A DNA stretch of 64,000 nt from a bacterium. Its GTDB lineage: Bacteria; Patescibacteriota; Patescibacteriia; SBBB01. The notes beneath the pieces are model-generated. The model was not told where the DNA came from, made no database searches, and was given only the letters and a program-made list of their open reading frames with translations. The stretch covers positions 4,098-68,097 of the forward strand of contig SBBB01000022.1 in assembly GCA_005239895.1 (NCBI GenBank). Reading direction: 5' to 3'. The translations under genes and the position numbers were made by a program. Below, piece after piece: positions 5,397 to 54,835 of the stretch. Within the stretch, counting starts at the first letter, position 1. Each line of letters starts with the position of its first letter.

Positions 5397-6578
5397 TCAT
5401 CTAACTCTAAGTGTGGAGCCTAAATACTCTAAACCTTTCGGTTTAATGATAACTGATTTGCTATTACTCTGTTCAATATGTCCAGCGCGAAACGCTACGA
5501 GCTTATTTGTAGTAGCGATTCTGATAACATGATCTACATCAGCTTCCGAAACATAGAGCGCAAAACCAGCGCCCATATTCCAGTTACCGTACGCCTCCCT
5601 ATCATCCACTGGACCATACCTCTGCATAACATCAAATATCAATTGTTGTTTTGGTAAACGATCGATAATGTAGGCAAATGGTTGTGTTGCTCGCATAAGC
5701 TTGCGCCATCCATGACCCGTAATATTTACCGCGTAATGAATGTCCACTCCGCTACTAATACAGTCTTCAACCAGCCCAACATAAATATGAGTTGGATCAA
5801 GCAATGTTTCTCCGTACGTTCGCCCGTCATCGAGTTTGGTCAAATAACCATCAGATAAAACACGAGGCGGAAACCAATTAGGTATTAAAAAGAAATTTAC
5901 CACTGCTTTCCAGAACCTGTGCTTTCTTTCACCAATCTCTCGCGCCATTGTGAGTCCATTAGCATGAATACCCGAACTCTCAATCATAACAATCGCATCA
6001 CCATGTTTAATGTTTGCTGGATTGATAACATTCTTCTTGGATTTAACTCTACCTACAGCAGCGCCGGCAAGTATAACTGTTTTTGGCATCACCATATCTT
6101 TCACTGTTTGAGTTTCGCCACAACCCCATGTGCAACGCGCTAAATTACAAGCGTTTTTAGTACCTCGACTGAAGTCTCTATAACGCTTCTCATCTGTAAA
6201 CCAACTTGATTTACCTGCTGCGACAAATATCATAAATACATGCGGAAATACGCCAGACGCAACCAGGTCATTTACAACCATAGCCACATTACACTGCGCG
6301 ATATGGTCGTAATAAGACTTGCCAGTGAGACGATACATAGCATCGGCTACTAGATTCTTTGTGCCCAATCCTTCTATAGTACCTCCCCAATAACAATCAT
6401 CCACTTCCATAAGATAAGCGCTCTCACCGCGACTCCACCTGGCTTCTTTAAAATCTCCATTACTGAAGTGATAGATGTTGTTTGAGGTGTCACAACCATC
6501 TATTTGCGATATTCTCTTGGTTAGATCCATCGCATCATAATTTACTCCAACTCCATCATAAGTCATTTTGCCTGCCAT
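5397..6578 (-). CDS. AIR synthase (PurM)-family protein
   Basis: PurM-like motifs GLGTKNLVA, VAMVVNDLVASG, GETLLDPTHIYV, NITGHG, WNMGAGFALYV; carries an N-terminal extension. Confidence 0.65.
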   Translation of the reverse strand: MAGKMTYDGVGVNYDAMDLTKRISQIDGCDTSNNIYHFSNGDFKEARWSRGESAYLMEVDDCYWGGTIEGLGTKNLVADAMYRLTGKSYYDHIAQCNVAMVVNDLVASGVFPHVFMIFVAAGKSSWFTDEKRYRDFSRGTKNACNLARCTWGCGETQTVKDMVMPKTVILAGAAVGRVKSKKNVINPANIKHGDAIVMIESSGIHANGLTMAREIGERKHRFWKAVVNFFLIPNWFPPRVLSDGYLTKLDDGRTYGETLLDPTHIYVGLVEDCISSGVDIHYAVNITGHGWRKLMRATQPFAYIIDRLPKQQLIFDVMQRYGPVDDREAYGNWNMGAGFALYVSEADVDHVIRIATTNKLVAFRAGHIEQSNSKSVIIKPKGLEYLGSTLRVR

Positions 6579-7158: not shown

Positions 7159-7260
7159 AAAATGATTTTAATTAAATCTTAATAATTATTAACTTAGGTG
7201 CCTTGCTCCTAAGTTGTTGCTACGTAAATGTGCTTGCACTACGAAGCCTTGGCGAAGTAG

Positions 7261-7331
7261 TGGACCTGAGGGGAATCGGACCCCTGCCATCCGGATGCAA
7301 ACCGGATACACTACCACTATGCTACAGGCCC
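7261..7331 (-). tRNA. tRNA-Ala (anticodon UGC)
   Basis: Minus-strand cloverleaf: acceptor GGGCCTG/CAGGTCC with a G3:U70 pair, anticodon arm TCCGG-TTTGCAT-CCGGA, discriminator A. The T-loop is atypical (TCCGATT). Confidence 0.55.
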
Positions 7332-26892: not shown

Positions 26893-27099
26893 ATAATACT
26901 AAAATATCCAGGTCGCCCTGGATATATGTATTGTATAACATGGTCTAGTAAATGTCAAGTAGTTGTATCCGTCCATCTCATTCTGGTGGCCTGCAAAGTT
27001 CAGGATATGAATGAGTTTGAGTAATATAATTTTTTGAAAAAATCATATTTTAGAATTCTAAAAAACGTAACATTAGCGATTATTATATAAAATTAATAT

Positions 27100-27130
27100 G
27101 CGAAAGGGGTTTTAGAGCGCCCCTTTCGCA
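27100..27130 (-). terminator. Hairpin GCGAAAGGGG-N9-CCCCTTTCGC downstream of ORF 27205-27741
   Basis: 10-bp perfect GC-rich stem. Confidence 0.4.
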
Positions 27131-27204
27131 AAAATAAATATCATTATGAAGCGTTTTTAGATTTCAACAAAAAGCTCAGCAATAAACTGCCGAGTGACCA
27201 GACT

Positions 27205-27741
27205 TTAATTACGCGACTTTACTGGTTTGTCATTCAAGGCCACTATGTGTATAGCCTTGGGCACCTTACCTACATACCCAGAGCGATACTGGATAAGCAT
27301 CAGACCAGACGAAATATGCATATAGCTGAGTATGCCTGATGGTTGTGACAATCCCACAAGCTTACCACTAAAATTCACAATAAAAAAATCCGCAGGCATA
27401 AAATCTCTAAATAGACCAATACCTGCTTGTGGTTTCAATAAACCCTGAAGATATTTTTTATTGTCTACTCTATCGTCATAGAGCAACACACTTCCGCCGC
27501 TCATTCTTGTCAACTCGGCCTTATGGGGCAACCAGTTTTGTACTGATATTCCAAGCACCTTGTCGGCCTGTAAAAATAAATCCTTACTACTCAAGGCATC
27601 ATCAACAAACCGCGAACAATGCCCAGGTAAAAACTTATCAGACCCCAGATACCCTGTAATAATATTCGGTGCCAATGCCAATACTGTTGTCATTTTTGTA
27701 CCTCCTTTGTTAAGTGCTAGAACCGGAATCACCATGATCAT
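27205..27741 (-). CDS. hypothetical protein (178 aa) in a higher-GC patch
   Basis: ORF with atypical (GC-richer) composition; no recognised motif. Confidence 0.4.
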   Translation of the reverse strand: MIMVIPVLALNKGGTKMTTVLALAPNIITGYLGSDKFLPGHCSRFVDDALSSKDLFLQADKVLGISVQNWLPHKAELTRMSGGSVLLYDDRVDNKKYLQGLLKPQAGIGLFRDFMPADFFIVNFSGKLVGLSQPSGILSYMHISSGLMLIQYRSGYVGKVPKAIHIVALNDKPVKSRN

Positions 27742-27845
27742 TACGTAACTGCCCTAGACAGTTCCAACCGACCCACTGAAAACATTATTAGTTTCAGCTT
27801 ACAATCTAAAATATAATTCTAAACTCTAAGCTAAAACCAAAAATC

Positions 27846-27926: not shown

Positions 27927-30900
27927 TTAAGAACGTTTAATTAATTTAATTTTTAAAACCGCATTGTTTACTAAGATTTCATCACCGAAATCCATTTCTT
28001 TACACGGCATTATTTTACTACAAAGAGTAGCATCTTTCAATTGTTTTGTATAGTCATTAATTACTTTTAACAAATCTTCGTCTTCCGTAAAAAAACTCAT
28101 AACAACTTTATCGTTTATAGTAAGAGATTTATTTTTGCGATAACTATTGATTTGACGAATTAATTCACGCAACAAACCCTCTTGTTTTAATTCAGGTGTT
28201 AAAGTTAAATCTATGGCCACAGTAAGTTTTTTATATTTTTTTGAAATCCAATTGCGTTGTGTCTTAGATTTATCAGCTCCCAGCAACGCAGTTTTGATAT
28301 TCAACTCGTCTTGAATTAACCCTAATAGTTCTTTGTTTAAACTGGATGATAATTTCAGCCCTTGAATTTTTAAACATGACAACGGCTGTCTGATTTTAAT
28401 TCCTGACTCTGAACGCAAGCTGTGCGCTATTTCTACAACTTCTAAAACACTATCCATATTACGATGCAAAGTATTATTAATAAACTTTGCATTATAAACT
28501 GGCCAATTTTCTAAATGCACAGATTCCAGAGTTGGATTTAAAGATTGATACAAAACCTCGGCTTTAAAAGGCATAAATGGAGCAATAACAACTGCTACTT
28601 GCGATAATATAAAGCCTAAAAATTCTGGATTTTGCTTAATTCTATCACGACTCCTTCTTAAATACCATGTAGATAATGAATTAATAAAATCGCCAATTAA
28701 ACGAGTCGCACCAACAATGTCGTGCTTATTTAAAGAGAGTGTCATTTGTTTAATGAGAGCATGCAATTTGCTTAAAATCCATTTATCTAAAATATGTTTT
28801 GGTTTTATAATCTTAACTTTTTTAGATTTAGCTGATTTTTTTACATTATACATTTCATAAAAACTATACACATTCTGCAAGGTAATTAAAATATTTCTTT
28901 GGCTATCAGATATATTTTTCTCGCTTAAATTAAAATCTTCACCAAATTGCACTGCCGTAAGTAAAAAGTAGCGCAAACTATCAACACCGTATTTCTGAAA
29001 CAAAACATCAATATCCGTATAATTTTTTAATTTTTTACTTAATTTTTTACCATCCTCAGCCAAAATCAAACCTGTAACCGATACGTTTTTATAAGCGGGT
29101 TTAAGTTTCCCAAGTTTAGCTCCGTGGGATAGTTTAACTTTAGGAATAGTTAAAGCTGAGGCTAAAACATGTAAAGTATAAAACCAGCCTCGGGTTTGAT
29201 CCAGGGCCTCAACAATAAAATCCGCTGGGAAAATTTTTTCAACCTTTTCTTTATTTTCAAAAGGATAATGCCAAGAAGCATAAGGCATAGAACCAGATTC
29301 AAACCAACAATCCAAAACATCCTCAACTCTACGCATCTCTCCGCCGCAAGAACACTTTAAAACTATATTGTCTATATAGGGCCTATGAAGATCGCGAATA
29401 TTATTATGAAATATATGCTTAGATCCCCAGGGTACTTTTAAACTTACGGCTTGATGTTCGGATTTCATATTAAAATATTTATAAATAGTGCGTATAACCG
29501 CGCCATGAGTCACGATTACAATAGTTTTGTTTTTATAATCCTGATTTAATTTTTCAAATAATTTTGTAACCCTATTTTCAACGTCTTGATAAGATTCGCC
29601 ATTTTCTGGTTTTACTAAATAAGGTTGATCAGAATTATTTCTTAAATCCGTTAACTTGGAATAAAGCTTACCAGTGAAAACCCCGGGATTAATATCGTTC
29701 AAATTAGGATCTATGACTAAAGGAATATTGTGATGGCTATTAATCAGTTTGGCTGTTTCTTGAGTACGTAAAAATTCAGACGCCATTATTAAATCAATGG
29801 TTTGATCTCTTAGTTCCCGGCTAATTTTTTTAGCTTCGGCCACTCCCTTAGCTGTTAAATGAATGGATTTACGAATGTTACAAAAGGTAGGTTCATTTAA
29901 AACCTTATTTACATTATGCTCAGCTTCCGTATGTCTAATAACTATAAATTTATTACCGCTAGGCGTGGCTAAAGCCAGCTCTTCAATACTTCCCATAATT
30001 TTTTTAGTATGACATTTAACGCAAGACCAAGCTGGAATTGGAACTCCCCAAAATCTAGTTCTAGAAATTGCCCAATCCCGAGCTGTATCTAACCATTTGC
30101 CGAACCTTCCATTTTTAATATGTTGAGGACTCCAGTTTATTTTTTTATTATTAGCTAACAGCGCCGCTTTAATTTTTACAACATTCACATACCAAGAGGT
30201 TAAGGGATAATAAATTAAATAATGGTCGCAACGCCAGCAAAATGGATAGGAATGATTAATCACCTCTTCTTTCCATAATAATTTTCTTTGATCTAAATCT
30301 TGAGTAATGGCTATATTAGCGTTTTTAACAAGTTCACCTTCGCCTGGCAAATTTAAACCTTTCATTAATCTACCCGCAGCATCCACAGTTATAAACACTG
30401 GAAGTTTATTTTGTTTGCTCAACGTCATATCATCTTCTCCGAAAGCTGGCGCGATATGCACCACACCCGAACCGTCCGCACTAGACACAAAATCTCCGTG
30501 ATACACTTGATGGATTATATTTTTAAAATTTTTAATGTCTTGGGCTTTAATTAAAGATGAAACATTATAAAAAGCATCATAAGATACACCAATCAATTCA
30601 ACCCCCTTCATTATTTTAATAATCTTATAATCACCTTCGACAAAAACACTCAAACGATCCTTAGTTATAATTAAATATTCGTCTTGTATTTTTATAAGAG
30701 CGTAAAACAAGTTTTTATTAATGGCTAAAGCGACATTACCAGGCAGGGTCCAGGGCGTAGTCGTCCAAACCAAAAAATAACTATTGTTTGGTAAATTATT
30801 ATCTAGTGGTTTTTGAATTTTAAATTTAACATAGATAGATTTGTCATCAACATCGCGATACCCTAAATTTACTTCAAAATTAGATAAACCCGTCTCGCAG

Positions 30901-31454
30901 CGAGGACAATAAGGACACACTCTATAATCTTGATAAATTAATTGATTAGTATGCAACATTTTAAAAACCCACCAAACAGATTCCATGTAAGAATTATCCA
31001 GGGTTGCGTATTGTTGGTGATAATCTGTCCAACGCCCAATTCTGGAAAACGTACCTTTCCAAACATCTAAATATTTAAATACAATATCTTTACAAGCCTG
31101 ATTAAACTTAGCAATGCTAGCTGTTTTATCGCCAGCTAAAGATTCAATAGAAGATTTATTTTTAATACCTAGTTCTTTTTCAACTAAATTTTCAATAGGC
31201 AAACCATGGCAATCCCAGCCTATCCTGCGCTCTACTTTATAACCCTTCATAGTCCAATAACGAGTCACAACATCTTTAATAATACTAATAAACACATGAC
31301 CTACGTGAGGTGGACCAGAAGCAAATGGAGGACCATCGTAAAAATTATAAAGTGGACATTTATCATTTTTGATTAAAGTCTTCTCAAAAATTTTATGTTC
31401 ATCCCAAAATTTTAATACATCCTCTTCTTTAGAAGAAGAATTTATTTGTAGCAT
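27927..31454 (-). CDS. ileS: isoleucyl-tRNA synthetase with an inserted histidine-phosphatase (PGM-like) domain
   Basis: HIGH (PHVGHV), WDCHGLP, KMSKS-like KLSKK and the anticodon-binding region are present. A ~190-aa insert (FIVIRHTEAEHN...VTHGAVIR) lies between the two Zn-knuckle Cys pairs. Confidence 0.85.
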   Translation of the reverse strand: MLQINSSSKEEDVLKFWDEHKIFEKTLIKNDKCPLYNFYDGPPFASGPPHVGHVFISIIKDVVTRYWTMKGYKVERRIGWDCHGLPIENLVEKELGIKNKSSIESLAGDKTASIAKFNQACKDIVFKYLDVWKGTFSRIGRWTDYHQQYATLDNSYMESVWWVFKMLHTNQLIYQDYRVCPYCPRCETGLSNFEVNLGYRDVDDKSIYVKFKIQKPLDNNLPNNSYFLVWTTTPWTLPGNVALAINKNLFYALIKIQDEYLIITKDRLSVFVEGDYKIIKIMKGVELIGVSYDAFYNVSSLIKAQDIKNFKNIIHQVYHGDFVSSADGSGVVHIAPAFGEDDMTLSKQNKLPVFITVDAAGRLMKGLNLPGEGELVKNANIAITQDLDQRKLLWKEEVINHSYPFCWRCDHYLIYYPLTSWYVNVVKIKAALLANNKKINWSPQHIKNGRFGKWLDTARDWAISRTRFWGVPIPAWSCVKCHTKKIMGSIEELALATPSGNKFIVIRHTEAEHNVNKVLNEPTFCNIRKSIHLTAKGVAEAKKISRELRDQTIDLIMASEFLRTQETAKLINSHHNIPLVIDPNLNDINPGVFTGKLYSKLTDLRNNSDQPYLVKPENGESYQDVENRVTKLFEKLNQDYKNKTIVIVTHGAVIRTIYKYFNMKSEHQAVSLKVPWGSKHIFHNNIRDLHRPYIDNIVLKCSCGGEMRRVEDVLDCWFESGSMPYASWHYPFENKEKVEKIFPADFIVEALDQTRGWFYTLHVLASALTIPKVKLSHGAKLGKLKPAYKNVSVTGLILAEDGKKLSKKLKNYTDIDVLFQKYGVDSLRYFLLTAVQFGEDFNLSEKNISDSQRNILITLQNVYSFYEMYNVKKSAKSKKVKIIKPKHILDKWILSKLHALIKQMTLSLNKHDIVGATRLIGDFINSLSTWYLRRSRDRIKQNPEFLGFILSQVAVVIAPFMPFKAEVLYQSLNPTLESVHLENWPVYNAKFINNTLHRNMDSVLEVVEIAHSLRSESGIKIRQPLSCLKIQGLKLSSSLNKELLGLIQDELNIKTALLGADKSKTQRNWISKKYKKLTVAIDLTLTPELKQEGLLRELIRQINSYRKNKSLTINDKVVMSFFTEDEDLLKVINDYTKQLKDATLCSKIMPCKEMDFGDEILVNNAVLKIKLIKRS

Positions 31455-31470
31455 AAAAAATCACTTTAGT

Positions 31471-32457
31471 TTAGAGAACCTGAGTAATTGGATTCTTGCC
31501 ATCCAGCACGGCTATAATATTGTCTACAGCCAGTTGGGCCATACCAGCGCGAGTTTCAATGGTGGCTGAGGCTATATGAGGAGTAATAACTAAATTTTTT
31601 AATTTTGACATTCCGGGGCTTAAACGGGGTTCAAATTCAAAAACATCTAAAGCTGCGCCAGCGATACGCTTAGATTGCAAGGCTTTAACCAATTCTACTT
31701 CATTAATAATTGGTCCTCTAGAAGTATTAATAATATAAGCTGTTTTTTTAATTAATTTTAACTGTTTTTTATCTATTAAATGACGGGTAGTTGGTAGTAA
31801 AGGAACATGAATAGATATAAAATCAGAATTTTTTAATAAATCACTTAAACTAACTGCGGAACAACCCAAGCTTTGATCTAATTCCGCGTGAATCTTACCA
31901 TTATCAAAATATACAACTTTCATCTGATAACCCCGAGAAGCAATCTTAGCCACTATGGAACCAATTCTTCCCATGCCAATAATACCAATGGTTTTGTCTT
32001 TTAACTCCGATCCTAAAAACAAATCTGGTCTCCAGCCTTTAAATTTATTTTTCCGTAAAAATTCATCCGACTCTGGAATTCTTCGAGCCAAACTCATTAT
32101 TAAAGCAAATGTGTGCTCAGCCACGGCTTGAGTGAGAACATTAGGAGTGTTGGTAACAATAATATTTCTTTCTTTGGCTTCTTGAATATCAATATTATCA
32201 TACCCCACGGCATAATTAGCAATAACCTTTAATTGTTTGCCAGCGCTATCCATAATTTCTTTAGATATTTTATCAGTTAATAAACATAGAATAGCATCTT
32301 TACCCACTACAGCTTTTTTTAACTCATTAGGTTGTAAAGTATTGGCAGACTTATTAATTGTAACCGCGTATTTTGACCTTAATTGTTTAACAGCTTCTCC
32401 GGGTAATTGTTTGGTAACTAAAATTTTAAATTTAGACATAATTAATAATTTACCCAC
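31471..32457 (-). CDS. D-isomer-specific 2-hydroxyacid dehydrogenase (glycerate/D-lactate dehydrogenase family)
   Basis: NAD-binding GIIGMGRIGSIVA; catalytic R..E..H arrangement. Confidence 0.8.
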   Translation of the reverse strand: MGKLLIMSKFKILVTKQLPGEAVKQLRSKYAVTINKSANTLQPNELKKAVVGKDAILCLLTDKISKEIMDSAGKQLKVIANYAVGYDNIDIQEAKERNIIVTNTPNVLTQAVAEHTFALIMSLARRIPESDEFLRKNKFKGWRPDLFLGSELKDKTIGIIGMGRIGSIVAKIASRGYQMKVVYFDNGKIHAELDQSLGCSAVSLSDLLKNSDFISIHVPLLPTTRHLIDKKQLKLIKKTAYIINTSRGPIINEVELVKALQSKRIAGAALDVFEFEPRLSPGMSKLKNLVITPHIASATIETRAGMAQLAVDNIIAVLDGKNPITQVL

Positions 32458-54748: not shown

Positions 54749-54835
54749 TGGTGCCCTTGAGAGGACTCGAACCTCCACGAGATTGCTCTCATAGGCACCT
54801 GAAGCCTACGTGTCTGCCAATTTCACCACAAGGGC
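54749..54835 (-). tRNA. tRNA-Leu (anticodon CAG), long variable arm
   Basis: Minus strand: acceptor GCCCTTG/CAAGGGC, anticodon arm TAGGC-TTCAGGT-GCCTA, T-arm GGAGGTTCGAGTCCTCT, discriminator A, CCA encoded. Confidence 0.75.

What the first reader, a model, noticed from the sequence alone, without database searches (positions are those of the whole stretch)
29387..29966. Isoleucyl-tRNA synthetase with an inserted histidine-phosphatase (PGM-like) domain
A ~190-aa block with the branch-1 histidine phosphatase signatures (FIVIRHTEAEHN, i.e. the RHxE catalytic His motif, and VTHGAVIR, the second His) is inserted between the two Cys pairs of the IleS zinc-binding region: ..SCVKCHTKK.. [insert] ..LKCSCGGEMRRV... 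Canonical IleS has only ~30-40 aa there. This makes the 1175-aa protein an unusual synthetase-phosphatase fusion. Possible roles include dephosphorylating an aminoacyl-adenylate analogue or antibiotic, moonlighting, or nucleotide signalling.
Basis: partly seen in the sequence, partly recalled or inferred. Interest (0 to 1): 0.7.

Follow-up and report, generated by a model that had tools for sequence, protein, structure and literature searches.

The report
Isoleucyl-tRNA synthetase carrying a phosphatase domain
An essential protein-synthesis enzyme (isoleucyl-tRNA synthetase) of a tiny uncultured bacterium has a complete, apparently active phosphatase enzyme spliced into one of its surface loops; this undescribed arrangement is common across that whole bacterial group, and its purpose is still unknown.

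Summary
ORF 27927-31454 (-) encodes a complete 1175-aa type-2 IleRS. It passes the NCBIfam ileS cut-off and has HVGH, KLSKK, an editing domain, an anticodon domain and DUF5915. A whole branch-1 histidine phosphatase domain (Pfam His_Phos_1, E=8.5e-33, residues 504-673) replaces a 5-15-residue loop at the tip of the zinc-binding CP3 hairpin.

It is not an artefact. 98 of the 120 closest IleRS clusters (Patescibacteria/CPR) carry the insert at the same point. The catalytic set R-H-R-(E/D)-H is intact in 151 of 154 IleRS-embedded copies. AlphaFold models are confident, and the closest folds are small-molecule phosphatases (iPSP1, CobC, PhoE).

New findings:
- In some lineages the same phosphatase type is a separate gene wedged between argS and ileS, in the same syntenic slot. 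In others it is absent.
- It also occurs at a second IleRS site and in 2-4 tandem copies.
- It also occurs fused to TsaC, the adenylate-forming enzyme of t6A37 synthesis.

So it is a dedicated partner of IleRS. Its substrate is unknown. I favour a nucleotide-type small phosphate linked to adenylate chemistry (~0.4) over removal of a phosphate from a tRNA end (~0.2). Ten literature searches found no description of it.

The parts
27927..31454 (-). ileS: complete type-2 isoleucyl-tRNA synthetase, 1175 aa, carrying the insert
   Evidence: ORF. NCBIfam TIGR00392 ileS scores 816.5 bits against a cut-off of 621.4. Pfam finds tRNA-synt_1, Anticodon_1 and DUF5915. Best PDB relatives are IleRS2 8c8u and T. 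thermophilus 1ile. AF2 full-length model: mean pLDDT 84.2, pTM 0.73.
31296..31307 (-). HIGH signature (HVGH, residues 50-53)
   Evidence: H50 and G52 are invariant and H53 is nearly invariant (>=90%) in 32 insert-bearing homologues.
30243..30866 (-). CP1 editing domain (about residues 197-404), including WTTTPWTLPGN
   Evidence: Aligns to isolated IleRS editing-domain structures 1wk8/1wny/1ue0. T231-T233, W235 and T236 are invariant.
30045..30083 (-). CP2-CP3 linker ARDWAISRTRFWG (residues 458-470), eight residues upstream of the first Cys of the zinc hairpin
   Evidence: D460, W461, R465, R467, W469 and G470 are invariant. The homologous yeast segment 453-ARDWNVSRNRYWG-465 lines the reveromycin pocket, which lies in the tRNA-binding site (PMC7955072).
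30012..30023 (-). First Cys pair of the CP3 zinc hairpin (C478, C481)
   Evidence: C478 is present in 93/98 and C481 in 89/98 insert-bearing homologues. CP3 of T. thermophilus IleRS is the zinc-binding subdomain (PMC7191050).
29421..29975 (-). Inserted segment relative to IleRS2 8c8u (residues 494-678), i.e. the histidine phosphatase domain plus short linkers
   Evidence: Alignment gap. Insert-less relatives have only 5-15 residues between GSxxEL and LHRPxID.
29436..29945 (-). His_Phos_1 (branch-1 histidine phosphatase) domain, residues 504-673
   Evidence: Pfam E=8.5e-33. AF2 model pLDDT 88.9. Foldseek best hits are iPSP1 4ij6/4ij5 (TM 0.77-0.81 on the target), CobC 6e4b and PhoE 1h2e. phmmer gives PhoE 2e-12, iPSP1 3e-12 and CobC 5e-12.
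29925..29936 (-). RHxE catalytic motif (R507, nucleophile H508, T509, E510)
   Evidence: R507 and H508 are present in 98/98. Position 509 is G in 85/98 and T here.
29766..29768 (-). Second phosphate-pocket arginine, R563 (in SEFLRTQETA)
   Evidence: R563 97/98, S559 98/98, T567 95/98.
29694..29696 (-). Putative general acid D587, which aligns with the Glu of PhoE's LREIHLGDWEG
   Evidence: The position is acidic in 98/98 (E 78, D 20).
29505..29507 (-). Second catalytic histidine H650 (VTHGAVIR)
   Evidence: 98/98.
29346..29354 (-). Second Cys pair of the CP3 zinc hairpin (C701, C703)
   Evidence: Each is present in 93/98.
29031..29045 (-). KMSKS signature (KLSKK, residues 804-808)
   Evidence: K804, S806 and K807 are invariant.
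28377..28787 (-). Anticodon-binding domain (Anticodon_1, residues 890-1026)
   Evidence: Pfam E=3.8e-26.
27939..28256 (-). C-terminal DUF5915 domain typical of type-2/archaeal-eukaryotic-like IleRS (residues 1067-1172)
   Evidence: Pfam E=1.3e-18.

Best explanation
SHOWN. The gene encodes a complete type-2 isoleucyl-tRNA synthetase. A complete PhoE/CobC/iPSP-like branch-1 histidine phosphatase domain of about 185 residues is grafted onto the tip of its zinc-binding CP3 hairpin. That site lies a few residues after the CP2-CP3 linker that lines the pocket for the tRNA 3' end. Both enzymes keep all their signature and catalytic residues. The arrangement is a lineage-wide, selectively maintained trait of Patescibacteria. 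The same phosphatase subfamily also occurs in four other forms: (i) as a separate 189-202-aa cistron squeezed between argS and ileS in the same syntenic slot; (ii) at a second IleRS site just before the anticodon-binding domain; (iii) in 2-4 tandem copies; and (iv) as the C-terminal domain of TsaC, the threonylcarbamoyl-AMP synthase of t6A37 synthesis.

INFERRED. The protein is bifunctional. It charges tRNA(Ile) normally and also carries an active phosphohydrolase working through a phospho-His508 intermediate: R507 and R563 bind the phosphate and D587 protonates the leaving group. The phosphatase is a dedicated accessory of IleRS, not a random passenger.

PREFERRED MECHANISM (about 0.4). It hydrolyses a small, nucleotide-type phosphate compound that is produced at, or competes for, the adenylate-forming active site shared in kind by IleRS and TsaC (both make X-AMP + PPi). 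Candidates are AMP, PPi, or a phosphorylated adenosine or adenylate-mimicking inhibitor. This would be local product clearance or 'sanitation' of the adenylation site. The substrate itself is not shown.
For: Architecture: with IleRS cut-offs met.

Not an artefact and widespread: 98 of 120 closest IleRS clusters carry the insert at the same point. Ten of 80 sampled GTDB species loci have it, including Yanofskybacteria, Paceibacteria, Spechtbacterales, Minisyncoccia, Peregrinibacteria and Peribacteria.

Catalysis retained: R507, H508, S559, G591, E620, R628 and H650 are each 98/98, R563 is 97/98, and position 587 is acidic in 98/98. The pentad is intact in 151 of 154 IleRS-embedded copies, including tandem and second-site copies. 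The insert averages 41% pairwise identity against 58% for the IleRS body, so it evolves faster but under constraint.

Functional coupling: free-standing proteins P0184, P0169 and P0237 and the L018 ORF score 198-225 bits against the insert HMM, while generic relatives score about 140. Their nearest relatives are IleRS inserts (40-49% identity). All four tested lie 1-10 nt upstream of an insert-less ileS; argS lies immediately upstream (ending 1-3 nt before, or overlapping, the phosphatase gene) in three of them and about 3.8 kb upstream in the fourth (L089). Fused, split and absent states occupy the same argS-ileS-recO slot.

TsaC link: four clusters have TsaC + His_Phos, and their phosphatase domain is 42-51% identical to IleRS inserts. 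TsaC catalyses an adenylation that releases PPi (PMC10484737).

Nucleotide flavour: one IleRS subgroup additionally carries a MutT-like NUDIX insert, and one carries a P-loop kinase-like insert. Generic free-standing relatives sit among NUDIX, HD, dNK, thymidylate kinase and adenosine deaminase genes. NCBIfam lists MutT1 (Nudix + His_Phos) and RNase H/acid phosphatase as known fusions of this fold.

Position: the CP2-CP3 linker lines the pocket for the tRNA 3' end (PMC7955072).
Against: The insert reaches no NCBIfam equivalog cut-off (CobC 105.6 against 162.9, PspA 77 against 350, dPGM 73 against 225), so specificity cannot be transferred from any characterised family.

A freely diffusing small substrate gains little from tethering. 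The variable insertion site, variable copy number and split form also argue against precise substrate channelling.

If AMP or PPi clearance were the point, the module should turn up on other aaRSs. Among the 150 best library hits, every large carrier is IleRS; the only other fusion partners seen are TsaC and one MtaB-like enzyme. That IleRS specificity is unexplained.

Some close lineages lack the module at the locus altogether, so it is dispensable there.

Confidence: 0.42

Rival explanations
1. tRNA-directed phosphatase. IleRS (and TsaC, and the MtaB-like enzyme) serve as tRNA-binding scaffolds that recruit the phosphatase to remove a blocking terminal phosphate from tRNA. The phosphate could be a 2'- or 3'-phosphate on the CCA end or on a cleaved anticodon loop. 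This 'end-healing' would let damaged tRNA be recharged.
For: Every fusion partner found is a tRNA-pathway enzyme: IleRS, TsaC (t6A37) and an MtaB-like ms2t6A-type methylthiotransferase. The variable insertion site, variable copy number and split form fit recruitment to a macromolecular substrate better than they fit channelling. One IleRS also carries a P-loop kinase-like insert, and its weak hits include the polynucleotide kinase Pnkp1, so it would pair a kinase with a phosphatase. In CPR TsaC the same C-terminal slot can hold a 2H cyclic-phosphodiesterase/LigT-like domain, an MGMT-like domain or a fused TruB. CP3 starts at the linker that forms the tRNA A76 pocket.
Against: To my knowledge (from memory) no branch-1 histidine phosphatase is known to act on RNA ends. 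The fold is closest to capped small-molecule enzymes. The kinase-like insert matches small-molecule kinases (APS, shikimate) as weakly as it matches Pnkp1, and the NUDIX insert is MutT-like rather than RppH-like. The model does not explain why only IleRS among the aaRSs carries the module. TsaC itself does not need tRNA for its reaction (PMC10484737).
Confidence: 0.22
2. Hitch-hiking housekeeping enzyme. The phosphatase does an unrelated cellular job, such as nucleotide-salvage phosphatase, phosphoserine phosphatase or phosphoglycerate mutase-like activity. It is linked to ileS only for co-expression, in genomes prone to gene fusion.
For: The closest characterised relatives are metabolic enzymes (iPSP1, CobC, PhoE, dPGM_arch). 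Generic relatives sit in nucleotide-salvage neighbourhoods. Some lineages lack the module at the ileS locus. CPR TsaC and IleRS accrete many unrelated domains, including GNAT, rhodanese, NUDIX and MGMT-like.
Against: The IleRS-associated subfamily is distinct from the generic one (about 200-225 against about 140 bits). It stays with ileS in three different physical arrangements and at two insertion sites. Its only other host is another adenylate-forming tRNA-pathway enzyme. Insertion into the catalytic domain of an essential enzyme, maintained across class-level diversity, is hard to explain by co-expression alone.
Confidence: 0.15
3. Protein phosphatase. The domain dephosphorylates IleRS itself or another translation factor, for example to reverse an inactivating phosphorylation by a HipA-like toxin kinase.
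For: Some branch-1 members are protein phosphatases (SixA, PGAM5, Sts-1; from memory). There is a weak SixA match (30-39 bits). Toxin kinases are known to target aaRSs (GltX, TrpS; from memory). A cis-tethered or operonic antidote would fit the fused and split forms.
Against: The SixA cut-off is not met (30 against 74.5) and the domain has the cap typical of small-molecule enzymes. No kinase is conserved in the neighbourhood. No PADLOC match was found. No IleRS-targeting kinase is known.
Confidence: 0.08
4. Catalytically silent structural insertion: an extra surface or tRNA-binding module that only looks like a phosphatase.
For: CP3 is topologically variable among IleRSs and tolerant of change (PMC7191050). 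The insert evolves faster than the IleRS body.
Against: All five catalytic residues plus S559, G591, E620 and R628 are invariant or nearly so across about 150 copies that share only about 40% identity. That pattern is the signature of retained catalysis.
Confidence: 0.03
5. Artefact: a frameshift, chimeric assembly, mis-called gene or intein-like mobile element.
For: None found. Some related database entries (P0136, P0224) are truncated or odd and might themselves be chimeric.
Against: The ORF is uninterrupted. The identical protein is on record from NCBI and Logan sources. 98 independent homologues have the same junctions. Pfam finds no intein or homing-endonuclease domain. Composition matches the rest of the gene. 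The AF2 model of the whole protein is confident.
Confidence: 0.01

Closest known systems
Type-2 ('eukaryote-like') bacterial IleRS with zinc-binding CP3: Priestia megaterium IleRS2 (PDB 8c8u) and Thermus thermophilus IleRS (PDB 1ile)
   Same: The domain order is the same: Rossmann fold with HIGH and KMSKS, CP core, CP1 editing domain, CP2, zinc-binding CP3, anticodon domain and C-terminal DUF5915-type domains. E-values are 5e-200 and 3e-197. The NCBIfam ileS cut-off is passed.
   Different: Those enzymes have about 40 residues between the two CP3 Cys pairs. Here a 185-residue phosphatase domain sits at the hairpin tip.
PhoE (Geobacillus stearothermophilus broad-specificity phosphatase, 1ebb/1h2e), CobC alpha-ribazole phosphatase (6nru, 6e4b), and Hydrogenobacter thermophilus phosphoserine phosphatase iPSP1 (4ij5/4ij6)
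   Same: The branch-1 histidine phosphatase fold and size (about 175-210 aa) are shared, along with the RHG...R...E...H catalytic residues and a short cap. Target-normalised TM-scores are 0.72-0.81.
   Different: Those are free-standing metabolic enzymes. Sequence identity is only 20-25%. The insert fails every NCBIfam equivalog cut-off, so their substrates cannot be assumed.
Known fusions of a branch-1 histidine phosphatase to nucleotide or nucleic-acid enzymes: mycobacterial MutT1 (Nudix + His_Phos; NF052459) and bifunctional RNase H/acid phosphatase (PRK07238, Rv2228c/RnhC type)
   Same: A CobC/PhoE-like phosphatase domain is covalently joined to an enzyme that handles nucleotides or RNA. 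One IleRS subgroup (P0061/P0064) even combines a MutT-like NUDIX domain with His_Phos in one chain.
   Different: Those are end-to-end fusions with different partners. Here the domain is inserted inside the catalytic domain of an aaRS. Matches to those NCBIfam models are far below cut-off.
Other aaRSs with accreted catalytic domains, e.g. NCBIfam NF040702 'ileS_w_GNAT' (IleRS with an N-acetyltransferase domain)
   Same: An IleRS has acquired an extra small-molecule-modifying enzyme domain.
   Different: The domain (GNAT) and the subfamily differ. The window protein scores 264 bits against a cut-off of 1999.
Sua5 (TsaC/YrdC domain + C-terminal SUA5 domain)
   Same: In four CPR clusters the IleRS-type phosphatase occupies the position C-terminal to the YrdC domain. 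This is the position where Sua5 carries its extra domain.
   Different: The SUA5 domain is unrelated to histidine phosphatases. This comparison concerns relatives of the insert, not the window gene.

Membership tests
Isoleucyl-tRNA synthetase (class Ia, type 2) | Whole-protein score above the curated ileS equivalog cut-off | tested here: met
   TIGR00392 scores 816.5 bits against a cut-off of 621.4. valS, leuS and metG models all fall below their cut-offs.
Isoleucyl-tRNA synthetase (class Ia, type 2) | HIGH and KMSKS class-I signature motifs | tested here: met
   HVGH is at 50-53 and KLSKK at 804-808. Both are conserved in 32 homologues.
Isoleucyl-tRNA synthetase (class Ia, type 2) | CP1 editing domain with the Thr-rich peptide | tested here: met
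   WTTTPWTLPGN is present. Residues 197-404 align to isolated IleRS editing-domain structures.
Isoleucyl-tRNA synthetase (class Ia, type 2) | Type-2 C-terminal architecture (Anticodon_1 + DUF5915, no C-terminal zinc-binding domain of type 1) | tested here: met
   Pfam finds Anticodon_1 at 890-1026 and DUF5915 at 1067-1172. The best PDB hits are IleRS2 and T. thermophilus, with S. aureus type 1 far weaker.
Isoleucyl-tRNA synthetase (class Ia, type 2) | Aminoacylation of tRNA(Ile) | not testable with these tools
   This needs enzymology.
Histidine phosphatase superfamily, branch 1 (Pfam PF00300) | Score above the Pfam gathering threshold over most of the model | tested here: met
   114.1 bits against 21.7, covering model positions 2-170 of 194.
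Histidine phosphatase superfamily, branch 1 (Pfam PF00300) | Catalytic core: RHG-motif Arg and nucleophilic His, second Arg, general acid, second His | tested here: met
   R507, H508, R563, D587 and H650 are present. They are invariant (with E or D at 587) in 98/98 homologous inserts and in 151 of 154 IleRS-embedded copies.
Histidine phosphatase superfamily, branch 1 (Pfam PF00300) | Alpha/beta fold of the dPGM/PhoE type | tested here: met
   The AF2 model has pLDDT 88.9. Foldseek probability is 1.00 to iPSP1, CobC, PhoE and dPGMs, with E down to 1.5e-14.
Histidine phosphatase superfamily, branch 1 (Pfam PF00300) | Phosphohydrolase or mutase activity via a phospho-histidine | not testable with these tools
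   This needs enzymology with an H508A control.
CobC alpha-ribazole phosphatase (TIGR03162) | Score above the equivalog cut-off | tested here: not met
   105.6 bits against a cut-off of 162.9.
Phosphoserine phosphatase PspA/iPSP1 (NF045917, PRK13463) | Score above the equivalog cut-off | tested here: not met
   77.1 against 350, and 64.5 against 277. It is the best structural match, but at only 25% identity.
dPGM (2,3-BPG-dependent phosphoglycerate mutase; NF038349, TIGR01258) | Score above the cut-off | tested here: not met
   72.6 against 225, and 45.2 against 81.7.
SixA phosphohistidine (protein) phosphatase (TIGR00249) | Score above the cut-off | tested here: not met
   30 against 74.5.
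Intein or other self-splicing/mobile protein insertion | Hint/intein splicing domain or homing endonuclease at the insertion | tested here: not met
   No such Pfam family appears in the protein. The whole insert is accounted for by His_Phos_1.
Known anti-phage defence proteins (PADLOC-DB) | Match to any defence-system model | tested here: not met
   There is only a 14.9-bit chance-level hit for the insert, and none for P0184.

The most novel reading that the evidence does not exclude
The IleRS-associated histidine phosphatase is an RNA-end phosphatase. IleRS (or TsaC) recruits it to tRNA, where it strips a blocking 2'- or 3'-terminal phosphate. It would be the first RNA-directed member of the histidine phosphatase superfamily. 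Together with the kinase-like, NUDIX, 2H-phosphoesterase and MGMT-like domains found on sister IleRS and TsaC proteins, it would form part of a distributed tRNA repair and quality-control toolkit, bolted onto core translation enzymes in the reduced genomes of Patescibacteria.
Probability: 0.2. Interest if true: 0.85.

Novelty: new variant of a known kind. Interest (0 to 1): 0.65.

Why it matters
Catalytic domains added to aminoacyl-tRNA synthetases usually mark a second function, such as editing, signalling or resistance. Here an intact phosphatase has been kept inside the catalytic domain of an essential synthetase across a huge, uncultured bacterial radiation. It is kept next to the gene when not fused, and it has been moved onto a second adenylate-forming tRNA-pathway enzyme. 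That pattern points to an unrecognised step in how these minimal cells manage tRNA charging. The step could be product or nucleotide sanitation, inhibitor resistance, or tRNA repair.

The question is directly testable with one recombinant protein and an H508A control. The finding also identifies the CP3 hairpin tip as a naturally permissive site for inserting whole domains into a class-I synthetase, which is useful for engineering.

Tried and rejected
1. A word-index homologue search with the insert alone found nothing. This was an index limitation, because the exhaustive search and the full-length search both worked.
3. Operon link to the upstream 2-hydroxyacid dehydrogenase (a possible serine-pathway or PSP idea): the window's neighbours are not found next to ileS in any other locus, so this was rejected.
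4. Defence-system idea: no PADLOC match.
5. Assignment to CobC, PSP, dPGM or SixA: all curated cut-offs failed.
6. Kinase-like co-insert of P0168 as a polynucleotide kinase: the only hits are weak and mixed (APS kinase, shikimate kinase, Pnkp1, PezT), so this is inconclusive.
8. Ten literature searches found no paper describing IleRS or TsaC with a histidine phosphatase domain.
9. The G+C-rich stretch downstream of ileS was checked for a structured RNA. Only chance-level Rfam hits appeared.
10. The geometry of the phosphatase site relative to the synthetic site could not be measured, because model coordinates are not exposed.


Full report
**Observation**

The window holds one long ORF on the minus strand, 27927..31454, 1175 aa.

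Pfam gives a split tRNA-synt_1 match (E=3e-120). Between its two halves lies His_Phos_1 at residues 504-673 (E=8.5e-33), followed by Anticodon_1 and DUF5915. NCBIfam's curated ileS equivalog cut-off is passed (816.5 against 621.4 bits), while valS, leuS and metG models fail theirs.

Against solved IleRS structures the best matches are P. megaterium IleRS2 (8c8u, 5e-200) and T. thermophilus IleRS (1ile). Query 5-493 aligns to 8c8u residues 9-474 and query 679-1065 to 476-856. About 185 residues are therefore inserted at a single point and nothing of IleRS is missing.

The point of insertion lies between the two Cys pairs C478/C481 and C701/C703. These belong to the CP3 subdomain, which is the zinc-binding subdomain in T. 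thermophilus IleRS (PMC7191050). Insert-less close relatives have only 5-15 residues between the conserved GSxxEL helix and LHRPxID, and 30-39 residues between the Cys pairs.

**Not an artefact; how common it is**

The identical protein is on record from two sources, NCBI and a Logan read-run assembly, and the Logan contig was read directly as L001. Of the 120 best IleRS clusters in a 5.8-billion-protein collection, 98 carry 213-238 residues at the same place and 22 carry 30-39.

Named sources are Parcubacteria/Paceibacteria lineages: Jorgensen-, Portnoy-, Colwell-, Wolfe-, Nealson- and Pacebacteria. In a truncated sample of 80 GTDB species representatives, ten IleRS genes carry the domain. 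They include Yanofskybacteria, Minisyncoccia, Paceibacteria, Spechtbacterales, Peregrinibacteria and a Peribacteria gene with two tandem copies.

G+C content of the insert equals that of the gene. Pfam finds no intein or endonuclease. The window's organism (32.7% G+C) is therefore a member of the Patescibacteria (CPR). Within that group the insert is the majority state among the closest relatives.

**Is the phosphatase intact?**

Across the 98 aligned inserts, which share on average only 41% pairwise identity (the IleRS body shares 58%), the counts are as follows:

| Position | Conservation |
|---|---|
| R507 | 98/98 |
| H508 | 98/98 |
| S559 | 98/98 |
| R563 | 97/98 |
| Position 587 | acidic in 98/98 (E 78, D 20; D in the window) |
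| G591 | 98/98 |
| E620 | 98/98 |
| R628 | 98/98 |
| H650 | 98/98 |

When tandem, second-site and fragmentary copies are included, 151 of 154 IleRS-embedded domains keep the R-H-R-(E/D)-H set.

An AlphaFold2 model of the CP3 hairpin plus insert is confident (pLDDT 88.9). Its best Foldseek matches are Hydrogenobacter phosphoserine phosphatase iPSP1, E. coli/Shigella CobC and PhoE, followed by dPGMs, all with probability 1.0. phmmer against PDB agrees.

The full-length model is also confident (pLDDT 84.2, pTM 0.73). The insert region scores about 90 and its linkers 60-77.

The insert does not reach the cut-off of any curated functional subfamily: CobC 105.6 against 162.9, PspA 77 against 350, archaeal dPGM 73 against 225, SixA 30 against 74.5. 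It is a genuine branch-1 histidine phosphatase, very probably active, of unassigned specificity. IleRS signature elements are likewise conserved in 32 insert-bearing homologues, namely HIGH, KMSKS, the TTTPWT editing peptide and the DWxISRxRxWG linker.

**Evidence that the phosphatase and IleRS belong together**

An exhaustive HMMER search of 1.84 billion cluster representatives with the insert found 981 proteins at E<=1e-10. Among the best 150, every large carrier is an IleRS or an IleRS fragment.

The small free-standing hits fall into two classes when scored with an HMM built from the 98 inserts:
- Generic proteins of about 180 aa scoring about 140 bits.
- A set scoring 198-225 bits, as high as true inserts.

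The nearest relatives of the second set are IleRS inserts at 40-49% identity. All four members whose genes could be inspected lie on the same strand 1-10 nt upstream of an insert-less ileS of 931-962 aa. In three of them argS lies immediately upstream, ending 1-3 nt before or slightly overlapping the phosphatase gene; in the fourth (L089) argS is about 3.8 kb upstream. These four are the L018 ORF from a Staskawiczbacteria genome, P0184, P0169 and P0237.

The Parcubacterial block smpB...argS-ileS-recO is conserved. In that one slot the phosphatase is found in three states:
- inside ileS (L004, L006, L008-L012);
- as a separate cistron between argS and ileS (L018, L084-L088, and without adjacent argS in L089);
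- absent (L092, L063; also absent at L090 and L093, where the context has been rearranged).

After masking the insert, insert-less and insert-bearing IleRSs interleave at 65-72% identity. Gains, losses or fissions have therefore happened repeatedly.

There is a second recurrent insertion site just before the anticodon-binding domain, around window residues 870-886. P0121 carries a copy there, as do the second copies of P0126, P0139, P0219 and P0141. One truncated protein, P0224, has four tandem copies. All of these are catalytically intact.

**The same module on another enzyme**

P0264 is a TsaC carrying this phosphatase at its C terminus, and it passes the TIGR00057 cut-off (146.8 against 123.2). 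Three further clusters at 52-65% identity share the architecture. Their phosphatase domains score 197-218 bits on the insert HMM and are 42-51% identical to IleRS inserts.

TsaC makes threonylcarbamoyl-AMP + PPi, the first step of t6A37 synthesis on ANN-decoding tRNAs (PMC10484737). From memory (Nureki et al. 1994), t6A37 is a recognition element for E. coli IleRS.

A generic-type copy is fused to a MiaB/RimO-family methylthiotransferase, P0202, found on six contigs. Its best specific matches are the MtaB (ms2t6A37) models, although all fall below cut-off.

Sister IleRSs carry further accreted domains:
- a MutT-like NUDIX insert in the CP1 region in both P0061 and P0064, with a C-terminal rhodanese domain in P0061 only;
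- a P-loop kinase-like domain right after CP3 (P0168), with only weak, mixed hits to APS and shikimate kinases, Pnkp1 and PezT;
- GNAT and an IS200-like segment in the possibly chimeric P0136.

CPR TsaC proteins carry, in the same C-terminal slot, MGMT-like, 2H-phosphoesterase, NUDIX, GNAT or AAG domains. Some have an N-terminal TruB.

**Mechanism**

The shown facts are these:
- The protein is a bifunctional polypeptide with two intact active sites.
- The phosphatase is a selectively maintained, IleRS-dedicated module that works whether fused at either of two sites, multiplied, or encoded separately.
- The same module also serves TsaC.

What it hydrolyses is inferred. I favour a small, nucleotide-type phosphate compound linked to adenylate chemistry (about 0.4). 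Candidates are AMP, PPi, or a phosphorylated adenosine or adenylate-mimicking inhibitor. The reasons are:
- The fold and closest relatives are capped small-molecule phosphatases, and CobC's substrate is a nucleotide analogue.
- IleRS and TsaC share exactly one chemistry: X + ATP -> X-AMP + PPi.
- Co-inserted domains look nucleotide-directed (MutT-like NUDIX, small-kinase-like P-loop).
- Generic relatives sit in nucleotide-salvage neighbourhoods.
- NCBIfam knows Nudix + His_Phos (MutT1) as a nucleotide-sanitising pair.
- CP3 begins at the linker that lines the pocket for the tRNA 3' end and reveromycin, next to the synthetic site (PMC7955072).

Against this reading, tethering gives little advantage for a diffusible substrate, and the restriction to IleRS among the aaRSs is unexplained.

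The main rival (about 0.2) is a tRNA-end phosphatase that uses IleRS, TsaC or MtaB as tRNA-binding scaffolds. It explains the partner list, the positional freedom, the kinase pairing and the 2H domain in the TsaC slot. It has no precedent in this superfamily that I know of.

Lesser rivals are a hitch-hiking metabolic enzyme (about 0.15), a protein phosphatase (about 0.08), a silent structural insert (about 0.03) and an artefact (about 0.01).

**Comparison with what is known; novelty**

The IleRS part is an ordinary member of type-2 IleRS. The insert is an ordinary member of Pfam His_Phos_1 but belongs to no characterised subfamily.

Fusions of this fold to nucleotide or nucleic-acid enzymes exist, namely MutT1 and RNase H/acid phosphatase. 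IleRS with an added GNAT domain is known to NCBIfam (NF040702). A histidine phosphatase inserted in CP3 of an aaRS, its operonic split form and its TsaC fusion were not found in ten full-text literature searches. The sequences are in public databases, annotated only as 'isoleucine--tRNA ligase' or 'class I tRNA ligase family protein'.

I rate it a new variant of a known kind (an aaRS with an accreted catalytic domain), with interest 0.65. A specialist would be surprised by it, it is phylogenetically broad and clearly under selection, and it is testable with one recombinant protein. Its function remains open.

Noticed in passing
L018:5390-8846; L084:4341-9471; L087:4303-9367; L089:5576-6707: This is the 'split' form of the fusion. 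A 189-202-aa histidine phosphatase of the IleRS-insert subfamily is encoded as its own cistron, 1-10 nt upstream of an insert-less ileS; argS lies immediately upstream in L018, L084 and L087 but not in L089.
   Followed up: yes
L095:977-2140 (P0264); also P0269, P0270, P0271: TsaC (threonylcarbamoyl-AMP synthase) is fused C-terminally to the same phosphatase subfamily that is found in IleRS.
   Followed up: partly
Proteins P0272-P0384: Patescibacterial TsaC is a hub of domain fusions. Most carry an MGMT-like DNA_binding_1 domain (PF01035). Others carry 2H cyclic-phosphodiesterase/LigT-like, NUDIX, GNAT or AAG-glycosylase domains, or an N-terminal TruB.
   Followed up: no
L096:5887-7662 (P0202): A histidine phosphatase is fused N-terminally to a MiaB/RimO-family radical-SAM methylthiotransferase whose best matches are MtaB (ms2t6A37). 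It is seen on six contigs. The neighbours include NUDIX, deoxynucleoside kinase and thymidylate kinase genes.
   Followed up: partly
P0168 residues 737-869; P0061/P0064 residues 225-334; P0061 residues 1317-1406: Sister IleRSs carry further inserted domains besides the phosphatase: a P-loop kinase-like domain right after CP3, a MutT-like NUDIX domain in the CP1 region, and a C-terminal rhodanese domain.
   Followed up: partly
P0121 residues 733-899; P0126, P0139, P0219, P0141 second copies; P0224 (four copies); L015:5866-10281 (two copies): There is a second recurrent insertion site for the phosphatase just before the anticodon-binding domain. Some IleRSs have two to four tandem copies, all with intact catalytic residues.
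   Followed up: partly
P0136 residues 340-461 and 935-1063: One IleRS-like database protein contains an IS200-type Y1 transposase-like segment in CP1 and ends in a GNAT domain instead of the rest of IleRS. It may be a chimeric call or a decayed gene.
   Followed up: no
window 27050-27800 (ORF 27205..27741, minus strand, 178 aa): The stretch immediately downstream of ileS has 40-42% G+C against 33% for the window. Its 178-aa ORF has no precomputed Pfam annotation on the Logan contig, no PADLOC match, and no homologue in any related locus. Rfam gives only chance-level hits.
   Followed up: partly
window 29450-29899: GC skew within the insert is slightly positive (+0.02 to +0.07), while the rest of the gene is negative (-0.05 to -0.35). 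G+C content itself is unchanged.
   Followed up: no
L005:6001-9747: The Peregrinibacteria IleRS with the insert is interrupted by a stop under table 11 near its 5' part, since the ORF starts at 6529 but the match starts at 6001. Possible causes are an alternative genetic code, a frameshift or a sequencing error.
   Followed up: no
window 31471-32457: A D-2-hydroxyacid dehydrogenase gene ends 17 nt upstream of ileS. This adjacency is not conserved in any related locus, so the window's ileS has left the usual argS-ileS-recO block.
   Followed up: yes
window 7260-7331 and 54749-54835: Only two tRNA genes are present in 64 kb: tRNA-Ala(TGC) and tRNA-Leu(CAG), both on the minus strand. No other Rfam family reaches its gathering score.
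   Followed up: no
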